From sequence record MG770228.1: 64,000 nt of DNA, one strand, 5' to 3'. The stretch comes from Escherichia phage PMBT57. Each line of letters begins with the position of its first letter. The stretch's first letter is position 1. Under the pieces are notes generated by a model. That model was given only the letters and a program-made list of their open reading frames with translations. It did not search any database and had not been told where the DNA came from. Both the position numbers and the translations under genes were made by a program. Shown here piece after piece: positions 6,799-7,242 of the stretch.

Positions 6799-7242
6799 AT
6801 GCAAGTAATCCTGACCCAACCTGAAATCGAAGCTGCTCTGACTGGTTATGTAAACGACCTGATGTCTGTACGTGAAGGCATGGAAATTAAAGTAACCTTC
6901 AAAGCTACTCGTGGTGATGATGGTGCTACTGCAATCGTAGATATTGTCCCTGCTGGTTCCCAATCCGTTGAAGTGGTTGAGGAACCAAAGAAAGAGTCAA
7001 AGGAACGCAAGCATCGTCCCGTAACCCAGACCAATACTGCTGCTGTCAGTGCTCTGGCTTCTGCTACTGGTAAGAAAAAAGAAGAAGTAGTTGAAGTAGA
7101 AACTACTACTGAAACTGTTGATGAAACTGTAGAAGTAGCTGAAGAAGCTGCTGCTCAGGAAGAAGAAAAAGAAGTACAGGAAGAAGAGGCTAAAGAACCA
7201 GTACAGGCCAAACCTTCTCTGTTTGCAGGTCTGAAACGTTAA
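6799..7242 (+). CDS. hypothetical protein with basic centre and extremely acidic Glu-rich C-terminal tail
   Basis: 147 aa; C-terminal ~50 aa is EEVVEVETTTETVDETVEVAEEAAAQEEEKEVQEEEAKE; RBS-like AAGG upstream. Confidence 0.6.
   Translation: MQVILTQPEIEAALTGYVNDLMSVREGMEIKVTFKATRGDDGATAIVDIVPAGSQSVEVVEEPKKESKERKHRPVTQTNTAAVSALASATGKKKEEVVEVETTTETVDETVEVAEEAAAQEEEKEVQEEEAKEPVQAKPSLFAGLKR

What the first reader, a model, noticed from the sequence alone, without database searches (positions are those of the whole stretch)
6799..7242. Protein ending in a ~50-residue polyacidic tail next to the recombination genes
The C-terminal third is almost purely Glu/Val/Thr/Ala (EEVVEVETTTETVDETVEVAEEAAAQEEEKEVQEEEAKE) after a Lys/Arg-rich linker. 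Such tails occur in DNA mimics and in proteins that bind basic DNA-binding surfaces (SSB-interacting tails, anti-restriction proteins). Its position directly after the SSB-like and RuvC-like genes suggests a role in replication/recombination complexes or in masking host nucleases.
Basis: seen in the sequence. Interest (0 to 1): 0.4.

Follow-up and report, generated by a model that had tools for sequence, protein, structure and literature searches.

The report
Resolvase-linked tether protein mimicking SSB's tail
The acidic-tailed protein is phage N4 gp47, a conserved uncharacterised protein that travels with (and in many relatives is fused to) the phage's Holliday-junction-cutting enzyme. It ends in a copy of the short peptide that the phage's single-strand DNA-binding protein needs to activate the host RNA polymerase.

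Summary
The ORF at 6799-7242 is real. It is gp47 of an N4-like coliphage, and it is annotated 'hypothetical' in every record that annotates it.

The acidic stretch exists (residues 94-135, 18 D/E of 42, net -15). It is the most acidic 42-residue window in the 64 kb. It is not the C-terminus: the last 12 residues, QAKPSLFAGLKR, are a basic/hydrophobic tip.

The family is large (1485 50%-identity clusters at E<=1e-3) and has a fixed plan:
- a 52-residue alpha/beta N-domain;
- a roughly 90-residue disordered linker whose second half is net-negative in 137 of 137 representatives;
- the tip [RK]xSLF[AG][GN]L[KR][KR]P, with an invariant Phe.

The tip copies the C-terminus of the neighbouring N4SSB (KSLFGKK). 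The published 'activating region' of N4SSB for E. coli RNA polymerase is S260, K264 and K265 of that peptide. The two tips covary from phage to phage.

In many N4-like phages the whole gp47 module is fused to a RusA-type Holliday junction resolvase. Where it is not fused, it directly follows a RuvC-like or RusA-like resolvase gene.

Best reading: gp47 is a non-enzymatic tether/adaptor of the recombination module that docks where SSB's tail docks. The receptor is unproven. A DNA-mimic or anti-restriction role is not supported. The finding is moderately interesting and directly testable.

The parts
6799..7242 (+). gp47 ORF (147 aa plus stop). The start codon lies 2 nt after the gp46 stop codon.
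   Evidence: ORF list and sequence. Identical or 98.6% identical to gp47 of N4-type coliphages. PHROG 7641 full-length match, E=8e-42.
6799..6954 (+). N-domain, residues 1-52: helix 7-21 and beta-hairpin 28-36/43-51. Net charge -4. Carries the conserved loop K-A-T-R-G-x-x-G.
   Evidence: AlphaFold2 pLDDT of about 90. Near-invariant Q7, E9, I10, A13, A36, R38, G39, G42, A45, I49. No fold match in PDB; in BFVD only family members match.
6955..7077 (+). First half of the disordered linker, residues 53-93. Lys/Arg-rich (net +3) and includes the near-invariant P74 (..KERKHRP..).
   Evidence: Charge profile. pLDDT falls from 77 to 55. P74 is at least 90% conserved. Relatives carry RRPR or GRP-type basic patches here.
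7078..7203 (+). Acidic tract, residues 94-135 (18 D/E of 42, net -15).
   Evidence: Predicted disordered (pLDDT 54-58). Acidity is conserved in 137 of 137 representatives, but the sequence is not.
7099..7122 (+). ET[TV][TD] four-residue (12-nt) units inside the acidic tract. They are gained or lost among near-identical phages.
   Evidence: Relatives of 143, 147 and 151 aa that are 97-99% identical elsewhere.
7204..7239 (+). C-terminal tip, residues 136-147, QAKPSLFAGLKR (net +3). Family motif: [RK]x-S-L-F-[AG]-[GN]-L-[KR]-[KR]-(P).
   Evidence: F142 is invariant; S140, L141 and L145 are at least 90% conserved. Position counts over 152 tips: S 142, L/I 152, L(+3) 139, K/R(+5) 135. pLDDT is 75-80, against about 55 for the linker.
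6239..6796 (+). gp46, RuvC-like Holliday junction resolvase. It is the gene partner of gp47.
   Evidence: PHROG 159, E=5e-40. Homologues are named RuvC endonuclease subunit, and some carry PF02075. It lies directly upstream of gp47 in all RuvC-type loci.
5442..6239 (+). gp45, N4SSB (265 aa).
   Evidence: PHROG 743, E=5e-77. Annotated as ssb in N4. AlphaFold2 core residues 30-230 have pLDDT above 90.
6210..6236 (+). N4SSB C-terminal tip, residues 257-265, AAKSLFGKK. It contains S260, K264 and K265.
   Evidence: Sequence. L261 and F262 are invariant in 75 homologues, and S260 is at least 90% conserved. S260, K264 and K265 are cited as the 'activating region' for E. coli RNA polymerase (PMC2784036 citing Miller 1997; PMC4496689). 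It is tethered by a floppy linker, residues 234-259, with pLDDT below 50.
5445..5468 (+). N4SSB N-terminal peptide SNLFGNLA (family consensus M-S-L-F-G-N-L-K). This is a third copy of the F-x-[NG]-L motif.
   Evidence: F5 is invariant. Position counts: G(+1) 73, N(+2) 95, L(+3) 111 of 120. AlphaFold2 shows a short helix at 6-14 with pLDDT about 60-67, separated from the core by a floppy segment at 18-25.
4641..5396 (+). gp44, a Sak4-like ssDNA annealing protein. It is the first gene of the same module and a candidate receptor for the tips.
   Evidence: PHROG 124, E=4e-45, and Pfam AAA_24. Annotated Sak4-like in N4. Precedent: HK620 Sak4 docks on its SSB through the last six residues of the SSB (PMC5928155).

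Best explanation
gp47 is a non-enzymatic tether or adaptor that belongs to the recombination module of N4-like phages (Sak4-like annealase, SSB, Holliday junction resolvase, gp47).

It has three parts: a small folded N-terminal domain; a roughly 90-residue disordered, charge-segregated linker whose distal half is acidic; and a C-terminal docking peptide built around an invariant Phe (S-L-F-A-G-L-K-R).

That peptide is a copy of the C-terminal peptide of N4SSB (S260-L-F-G-K264-K265). I therefore propose that gp47 docks on the same receptor surface as the SSB tail. In relatives where gp47 is fused to RusA, the resolvase would dock there too. This would bring junction resolution to the place where SSB-coated replication and recombination intermediates are handled. 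The acidic stretch would serve as a flexible spacer, perhaps with an autoinhibitory, DNA-like charge.

Shown: the architecture, its conservation, the identity of the motif with the tip of SSB, the covariation of the two tips, and the gene fusion and synteny with resolvases.

Inferred: that the tip is a docking peptide, that both tips use one receptor, the identity of that receptor, and any role of the acidity. The only experimentally known partner of the SSB tip is the C-terminal region of E. coli RNA polymerase beta'. Phage-encoded candidates are gp44 (Sak4-like), the DNA polymerase, the SSB core and the gp47 N-domain.
For: (1) Family and plan. There are 1485 50%-identity clusters at E<=1e-3, almost all 120-190 aa and matched end to end. 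The N-domain is confidently folded and the rest is disordered. The distal linker is net-negative in 137 of 137 representatives and the tip averages about +3.

(2) Tip. 152 of 154 representatives carry [LI]F in the last 30 residues, with S at -2 in 142 and L at +3 in 139. F142 is invariant.

(3) The same motif in SSB. 120 of 120 N4SSB homologues end in ..S-L-F-G-K-K-type tips. Within the 64-kb window, gp45 and gp47 are the only ORFs of at least 100 residues with SLF in the last 8 residues.

(4) The SSB tip is functional. [quoted passage not shown]

(5) Covariation within genomes:
- window: KSLFGKK / PSLFAGLKR;
- Vibrio phage JA-1: SSLFN / KSLFG;
- roseophages: SSLFDD / SSIFD(Q/VD);
- locus L091: VGLFGKKA / VGLFANLKKP.
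The paired score is 592, against 429 +/- 40 for shuffled pairings, reached in 0 of 10,000 shuffles over 69 non-redundant loci.

(6) Link to resolvases. In nearly all of the ~95 loci fetched, SSB is followed by a RuvC-like or RusA-like resolvase and then the gp47 module. 11 of the top 150 representatives and 28 of 69 non-redundant loci are RusA-gp47 fusions confirmed by PHROG RusA profiles. Cultured examples include Rhizobium phage RHph_X2_28B and Vibrio phage JA-1.

(7) Spacer behaviour. Phages at least 97% identical differ by 4-residue indels in the tract.

(8) Precedent. HK620 Sak4 binds its cognate SSB through the last six residues of the SSB.
Against: - No binding was tested. A shared motif plus covariation does not prove a shared receptor, and the permutation test does not correct for phylogeny.
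- The module accompanies two unrelated resolvase folds (RuvC-like and RusA-like). A specific N-domain-resolvase contact is therefore doubtful, and the role of the N-domain stays unknown; it has no fold relatives.
- It is not obvious why a resolvase adaptor would need the one known receptor of the motif, RNA polymerase beta'.
- The N4 reference genome encodes a frameshifted gp47 without the tip. If that is real rather than a homopolymer sequencing error, the tip is dispensable in the laboratory.
- The locus sample used to count fusions was collected with a fusion query and so over-represents them.
Confidence: 0.5

Rival explanations
1. gp47 is mainly a regulator of the host RNA polymerase. Its tip binds the beta' C-terminal region at the N4SSB site. 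There it acts as a competitor (anti-activator that times late transcription) or as a co-activator, with the acidic disordered region acting on the polymerase. The association with resolvases would be secondary.
For: The tip reproduces the residues of N4SSB defined genetically as the activating region: S260, K264, K265 correspond to S140, K146, R147. Beta' is the only experimentally known receptor. By analogy (from my knowledge, not tested here), small acidic phage proteins that act on RNA polymerase are known, such as T7 Gp2 and T4 gp33.
Against: The whole module is fused to RusA in many lineages and is always placed after a resolvase. A pure transcription factor does not explain that. The tips change charge between clades (KK against DD), which is unexpected if the receptor is a 'highly conserved' beta' region.
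Confidence: 0.2
2. The tip docks on SSB itself (on its core, or in competition with SSB's own N- and C-terminal peptides), or on the gp47 N-domain. gp47 and the resolvase would then be loaded onto SSB-coated single-stranded DNA. This is a variant of the best explanation with a specific receptor.
For: The gp47 tip (SLF[AG][GN]LK) is even closer to the tethered N-terminal peptide of SSB (M-S-L-F-G-N-L-K) than to its C-terminal tip. Both SSB peptides hang on floppy linkers. The gp47 tip has higher pLDDT (75-80) in a model containing only the N-domain than the SSB tip has in the SSB model (about 51).
Against: pLDDT is a weak proxy, and neither contacts nor PAE were available. In the SSB monomer model the tips are not docked. 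The N-domain differs markedly between N4-type and G7C-type phages while the tips are the same.
Confidence: 0.15
3. The tip is a sliding-clamp binding motif that recruits SSB and the resolvase module to the host beta clamp.
For: The [SD]-L-F core at an extreme C-terminus resembles the bacterial clamp motif QL[SD]LF and the C-terminal clamp-binding peptide of RB69 polymerase (from my knowledge). Roseophage tips read KKSSIFDQ.
Against: The defining Gln is absent: 0 of 154 tips have Q at -4 and none match QL[SD]LF or looser forms. N4SSB activates purified RNA polymerase through these residues without a clamp. From my knowledge, N4 replication does not depend on the host replisome.
Confidence: 0.07
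4. One reading: the polyacidic stretch is a DNA mimic that masks host nucleases, restriction enzymes or other DNA-binding surfaces.
For: Strong and conserved net negative charge. As a weaker version, the acidic tract could mimic ssDNA towards N4SSB, whose own tail is not acidic.
Against: The tract is predicted disordered, not conserved in sequence and polymorphic in length. There is no similarity to any known protein in Pfam, NCBIfam or PDB. This reading does not explain the invariant tip, the covariation with SSB or the fusion to RusA.
Confidence: 0.06

Closest known systems
N4SSB (N4 gp45) C-terminal 'activating region' (S260, K264, K265)
   Same: Same core peptide, S-L-F-[GA]..[KR][KR], at the extreme C-terminus, held on a disordered linker with an invariant Phe. 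Encoded two genes away in the same phage, and it covaries with the gp47 tip.
   Different: gp47 has no SSB fold. Its tip is longer (F-A-G-L-K-R, usually followed by P-x-N in relatives), and its linker is acidic rather than Gly/Pro/Ala-rich. No function has been tested.
C-terminal tips of bacterial and phage SSBs (E. coli SSB DDDIPF, T7 gp2.5, HK620 SSB NDYPPF) that recruit partner proteins
   Same: The plan of folded domain, disordered linker and short terminal peptide with an essential Phe. HK620 SSB uses such a tip to load a Sak4 annealase, and a Sak4-like gene heads this module.
   Different: Canonical tips are acidic. Here the tip is basic and the acidity sits upstream of it. The carrier is not an SSB.
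T4 late-transcription and replication proteins that share a C-terminal clamp-binding peptide (gp43, gp33, gp55)
   Same: The logic is the same: several proteins of one phage carry the same terminal docking peptide and so converge on one hub that couples replication to late transcription (from my knowledge; review PMC2988020 listed).
   Different: No clamp is involved in the known N4 mechanism, the motif differs, and there is no homology.
RusA and RuvC Holliday junction resolvases
   Same: Constant gene partner, and fusion partner in the case of RusA.
   Different: N4 gp47 itself has no nuclease domain.

Membership tests
N4 gp47 family (PHROG 7641 / 18842 / 27655) | Full-length profile match | tested here: met
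   PHROG 7641: E=8e-42, residues 1-147 against profile positions 1-150 of 151. Profile search found 1485 clusters.
N4 gp47 family (PHROG 7641 / 18842 / 27655) | Position directly downstream of the SSB and resolvase genes in an N4-like (Schitoviridae) genome | tested here: met
   Window gene order and nearly all of the ~95 loci fetched. The 3506-aa virion RNA polymerase lies at 9644-20164.
N4SSB-type activating/docking peptide | Ser-Leu-Phe followed within four residues by two basic residues at the C-terminus (S260, K264, K265 in N4SSB) | tested here: met
   gp47 has S140-L-F-A-G-L-K146-R147 and gp45 has S260-L-F-G-K264-K265. The functional residues are taken from PMC2784036.
N4SSB-type activating/docking peptide | Binding to the RNA polymerase beta' C-terminal region and activation of late promoters | not testable with these tools
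   This needs biochemistry or complex prediction. Only single-chain prediction was available.
SSB C-terminal-tip type tether | Terminal peptide on a disordered linker, with a conserved aromatic anchor | tested here: met
   Linker pLDDT 54-58. F142 invariant in 137 sequences.
SSB C-terminal-tip type tether | Acidic tip (D/E flanking the terminal hydrophobic residues) | tested here: not met
   The tip is net +3. The acidity lies upstream in the linker.
Beta-clamp binding motif (QL[SD]LF) | Gln at position 1 of the pentapeptide | tested here: not met
   0 of 154 tips have Q at -4, and none match QL[SD]LF or Qxx[LIM]xF.
DNA-mimic anti-restriction proteins (Ocr/ArdA type) | Homology to a known mimic, or a folded scaffold displaying the acidic residues | tested here: not met
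   No significant Pfam match (best E=0.08, below cut-off) and no NCBIfam or PDB-sequence match. The acidic tract is predicted disordered.
DNA-mimic anti-restriction proteins (Ocr/ArdA type) | Inhibition of restriction enzymes or other DNA-binding proteins | not testable with these tools
   This needs an experiment.
Holliday junction resolvases (RusA, RuvC) | Nuclease domain in the protein itself | tested here: not met
   gp47 matches no resolvase profile. The RusA domain is present only in fused relatives.

The most novel reading that the evidence does not exclude
The SLF peptide is an address label shared by at least two proteins of N4-like phages, SSB and the resolvase-associated gp47 module. 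It sends both to the same site on the host RNA polymerase beta' subunit. Either Holliday-junction resolution is physically coupled to the polymerase that transcribes the late genes, or gp47 competes with N4SSB and so times the switch to late transcription. This would be a second, unsuspected player in the classic N4 late-activation mechanism.
Probability: 0.17. Interest if true: 0.75.

Novelty: new variant of a known kind. Interest (0 to 1): 0.55.

Why it matters
N4 is the model for replication-coupled activation of the host RNA polymerase by an SSB. In that model the only known determinant on the activator is the S260/K264/K265 tip.

Finding the same tip on a second conserved protein, one tied by gene fusion to Holliday junction resolvases, does three things:
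- It gives a widespread 'hypothetical' gene of the Schitoviridae a concrete and testable role.
- It suggests the SSB tip is a general docking peptide of the replication-recombination module rather than a dedicated transcription-activation surface.
- It offers a simple handle (an F142A mutation or removal of the tip) to ask how these phages target their resolvase, and whether late transcription, recombination and debranching are coordinated through one hub.

It also corrects annotation. The RefSeq N4 gp47 is frameshifted, and roseophage DSS3phi2 lacks the annotation for most of the module.

Tried and rejected
- Pfam gave only a chance-level ChitinaseA_N hit (E=0.08, below cut-off). NCBIfam gave nothing.
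- The literature searches for gp47 in N4 papers, N4-like phages with RusA, and gp44-46 found no functional statement on gp47.
It was redone with database homologues.
- The promoter/terminator scan around the gene found nothing above shuffled expectation.
- The tandem repeat finder gave only weak GAA-type repeats in the acidic tract.
- I considered that the conserved C-terminus of RuvC-like gp46 (..TPxFQNLMRLL) is a fourth copy of the motif. It follows the catalytic helix without a flexible linker and is richer in hydrophobic residues, so it is more likely a structural helix.
- I considered a beta-clamp motif and rejected it because the defining Gln is missing.
- I considered a C-terminal degron. 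This is unlikely for SSB, because its tip residues act in a purified transcription system.

Full report
**What the window is.** The region belongs to an N4-like coliphage. The 444 bases at 6799-7242 are 100% identical to Escherichia phages vB_Eco_Jura, SPSP and AL25, and 98.6% identical to N4, where the gene is annotated only as 'gp47'.

The surrounding genes, in order:
- primase (gp43);
- Sak4-like annealase (gp44);
- N4SSB (gp45, 5442-6239);
- RuvC-like resolvase (gp46, 6239-6796);
- gp47 (6799-7242);
- a 54-residue membrane-type ORF;
- four tRNA genes;
- homologues of N4 gp48 and gp49;
- the 3506-residue virion RNA polymerase on the other strand.

**Check of the observation.** The ORF and the quoted sequence are there.
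- Residues 94-135 hold 18 D/E and 3 K/R (net -15). This is the most acidic 42-residue window of any long ORF in the 64 kb.
- A Lys/Arg-rich stretch precedes it (residues 54-93, net +3).
- The description is incomplete in one important respect. The acidic tract is not the end of the protein. The last 12 residues, QAKPSLFAGLKR, are basic and hydrophobic (net +3).

**The family.** A profile search of 1.84 billion cluster representatives found 1485 relatives at E<=1e-3 and 735 at E<=1e-10. Almost all are 120-190 residues long and matched from first to last residue.

In an alignment of 137 representatives:
- the only invariant position is F142;
- S140, L141 and L145 are at least 90% conserved;
- the N-terminal 52 residues are well conserved (Q7, E9, I10, A13, A36, R38, G39, G42, A45, I49);
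- the middle has no sequence conservation.

AlphaFold2 with this alignment gives a confident small domain: helix 7-21 and a hairpin at 28-36/43-51, with pLDDT about 90. The linker is disordered (pLDDT 54-58), and pLDDT rises to 75-80 over the tip.

The composition of the linker is conserved even though its sequence is not:
- it is rich in Ala, Glu and Pro;
- the first half is about neutral (mean +0.4);
- the second half is net-negative in 137 of 137 representatives (mean -10; the window's -16 is the 6th most acidic);
- the tip is net positive (mean +2.7).

Among coliphages that are 97-99% identical, the only differences in the intact proteins (apart from two single-residue substitutions) are gains or losses of four-residue ET[TV][TD] units, giving proteins of 143, 147 and 151 residues. 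So the acidic tract behaves like a charged spacer whose exact length and sequence do not matter.

The domain has no relatives of known structure or name. In the viral structure library it matches only members of its own family. Cultured phages with a homologue infect Escherichia, Salmonella, Klebsiella, Erwinia, Achromobacter, Pseudomonas, Stenotrophomonas, Xanthomonas, Rhizobium, Agrobacterium, Vibrio and roseobacters. All are Schitoviridae. The gene is called 'hypothetical', or, when fused, 'RusA-like resolvase'.

**The tip is the SSB tip.** The neighbouring N4SSB ends in AAKSLFGKK.
- In 120 of 120 N4SSB homologues the last 12 residues contain L-F. Position counts: S at -2 in 110, G at +1 in 107, K at +2 in 80 and K at +3 in 87.
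- In 152 of 154 gp47-family representatives the last 30 residues contain [LI]-F. Position counts: S at -2 in 142, A or G at +1 in 120, G or N at +2 in 137, L at +3 in 139, K or R at +5 in 135, and P at +6 in 119.
- Within the window, gp45 and gp47 are the only ORFs of at least 100 residues with SLF in the last eight residues.

The SSB tip is not an anonymous feature. [quoted passage not shown] The residues named are S260, K264 and K265 (PMC2784036 citing Miller et al. 1997). Those are the S and the two K of S-L-F-G-K-K. gp47 has S140-L-F-A-G-L-K146-R147.

N4SSB carries a further related peptide at its N-terminus: SNLFGNLA in the window, with family consensus M-S-L-F-G-N-L-K (F invariant, N at +2 in 95 and L at +3 in 111 of 120).

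An AlphaFold2 model of N4SSB shows:
- a well-folded core (residues 30-230, pLDDT above 90);
- the N-terminal peptide as a short helix (6-14, pLDDT about 60-67) separated from the core by a floppy Gly-rich segment (18-25);
- the C-terminal tip at the end of a floppy linker (234-259, pLDDT below 50).

Both SSB peptides are therefore tethered, as the gp47 tip is.

**Covariation.** In loci from related phages the two tips change together.

| Phage or locus | SSB tip | gp47-module tip |
|---|---|---|
| Window | KSLFGKK | PSLFAGLKR |
| G7C-like phages | GGKSLFGK[KR] | KPSLFAGLKRS |
| Rhizobium phage RHph_X2_28B | APSLFGK | KSLFGGLKTPENA |
| Vibrio phage JA-1 | SSLFN | KSLFG |
| Locus L091 | VGLFGKKA | VGLFANLKKP |
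| Locus L092 | KLFGRKAS | TIFGRKKVV |
| Roseophages | (K)SSLFDD | KKSSIFD(Q/VD) |

The roseophage case matches the published remark that roseophage SSBs lack the terminal lysines.

Over 69 non-redundant loci, the BLOSUM score of paired tips is 592, against 429 +/- 40 for shuffled pairings. None of 10,000 shuffles reached the observed value. This control does not remove shared ancestry, so it shows lineage-wise co-change, not independent events.

**Link to Holliday junction resolvases.** Eleven of the top 150 family representatives are 250-313 residues long. They consist of a RusA-like resolvase domain (PHROGs 1682, 14238, 21721 and 34) followed directly by the complete gp47 module: N-domain, linker and tip.

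A scan of viral contigs with the fusion alignment found 389 relatives. In the 80 loci fetched, and in the 15 found with gp47 itself, the SSB gene is followed in nearly every locus by a resolvase and then the gp47 module. The resolvase is either RuvC-like, as in N4 and G7C-type phages, or RusA-like. The gp47 module is either a separate gene starting a few bases after the resolvase gene or fused to RusA.

Of 69 non-redundant loci, 10 were RuvC-like plus a separate gp47 gene, 19 were RusA plus a separate gene, and 40 were RusA fusions. In 12 of those 40 the N-domain was too diverged for my profile. The second sample was collected with a fusion query, so it over-represents fusions. No RuvC-gp47 fusion was seen among 120 RuvC-like homologues.

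The nuclease has thus been replaced by an unrelated one during evolution while the gp47 module stayed in place, and the module has repeatedly been joined to the nuclease. This is the strongest evidence for a functional link with junction resolution.

**Interpretation.** The simplest model that covers all of this is as follows. gp47 is a tether: a small domain of unknown partner, a long flexible charged spacer, and a terminal docking peptide equivalent to the tail peptide of SSB. gp47, and with it the resolvase, would be recruited to the same receptor as the SSB tail.

This is the logic of SSB C-terminal tips in general. A close precedent exists for this kind of module: the Sak4 annealase of phage HK620 binds its cognate SSB on ssDNA only through the last six residues of the SSB (PMC5928155), and a Sak4-like gene heads the N4 module.

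The receptor is open.
- RNA polymerase beta' is the only partner shown by experiment. However, the charge switch of both tips between clades fits a co-evolving (phage-encoded) receptor better than a highly conserved host surface.
- The similarity to the N-terminal peptide of SSB, and the raised pLDDT of the gp47 tip, keep SSB itself and the gp47 N-domain in play.
- A beta-clamp motif is unlikely, because none of 154 tips has the defining Gln.

The acidic tract may be only a spacer. It could also shield a basic DNA-binding surface (of the resolvase, SSB or the basic proximal linker) until docking. That part is speculation.

**Caveats.**
- No interaction was tested. Only single-chain structure prediction without contact output was available.
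- The N-domain has no assigned function.
- The N4 reference sequence lacks one A in an A5 run (window position ~7166). Its annotated gp47 (144 aa) therefore ends in an unrelated frame, although the downstream DNA still encodes the tip. The other full-length N4-type coliphage records found have the intact frame, so this is probably a sequencing error. If it is real, it would show that the tip is dispensable in the laboratory.

The protein is an uncharacterised but widespread Schitoviridae component. It has a clear modular plan and a terminal peptide shared with the transcription-activating tail of N4SSB. I found no description of this in the searched literature.

I rate it a new variant of a known kind (a tethered docking peptide), with moderate interest (0.55) and a set of direct experimental tests.

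Noticed in passing
window 9124-9609 (+): The homologue of N4 gp49 carries a Tad2-like (Thoeris anti-defence 2-like, PF11195/DUF2829) domain over residues 83-159, E=1e-23. It may be a signal-sponge type anti-defence protein in N4-like phages.
   Followed up: no
window 7257-7421 (+): A 54-residue ORF with one hydrophobic helix and a C-terminus ..GGDTKPPDV (PHROG 19025, E=1e-6). Similar 53-58-residue ORFs with D/K/P-rich ends follow gp47 in distant loci L003, L005, L006 and L007. It is not annotated in the N4 RefSeq record.
   Followed up: partly
window ~7162-7170; L001 5001-5435: The N4 reference genomes (EF056009, NC_008720) lack one A of an A5 run. Their gp47 is therefore annotated as a 144-residue protein with an unrelated C-terminus (..KKYRKKRLKNQYKPNLLCLQV). 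The tip is still encoded downstream in the other frame. This is probably a homopolymer sequencing error.
   Followed up: yes
L097 (roseophage DSS3phi2, FJ591093) 1453-2400: The annotated orf58 (RusA, 178 aa) stops inside the gp47-type N-domain. The rest of the module, ending ..NLFGDEG...KKSSIFDVD, continues in the +1 frame and is unannotated. This is a frameshift or sequencing error that hides a RusA-gp47 fusion.
   Followed up: partly
L072, L077, L080, L082, L084, L086 (roseophage-like RusA-gp47 fusions): This clade has two motif copies, an internal ..SKNLFG[DE]E.. about 30 residues before the terminal KKSSIFD[QAT]. It also has a conserved basic patch..GGRP(A/R)GSKNKP.., that looks like an AT-hook. 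Other lineages have RRPR or RRGRPPK in the proximal linker.
   Followed up: partly
window 6700-6796 (C-terminus of gp46) and P0283-P0402: RuvC-like gp46 proteins end in a conserved ..HAGVxTPxFQNLMRLL.. (82 of 120 have F-x-N-L). It resembles the F-[AG]-[GN]-L of the tips, but it follows the catalytic helix without a flexible linker and is probably a structural helix.
   Followed up: partly
window 5445-5468 (N-terminus of gp45): N4SSB has a conserved N-terminal peptide (consensus MSLFGNLK, F invariant). AlphaFold2 predicts it as a short helix tethered by a floppy Gly-rich segment. I did not find it described in the papers I could search. It may be a cooperativity or docking peptide.
   Followed up: partly
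window 7573-8251 (+): A cluster of four tRNA genes (Asn-GTT, Ser-TGA, Thr-TGT, Pro-TGG) lies between gp47 and gp48, as reported for N4 (PMC3670811).
   Followed up: no
window 7432-7457: A 9-bp GC-rich inverted repeat (GCGACTGG...CCAGTCGC) lies just after the small ORF and before the tRNA cluster. It may be a transcript end or a processing site. It was reported only on the minus strand by the simple scan.
   Followed up: no
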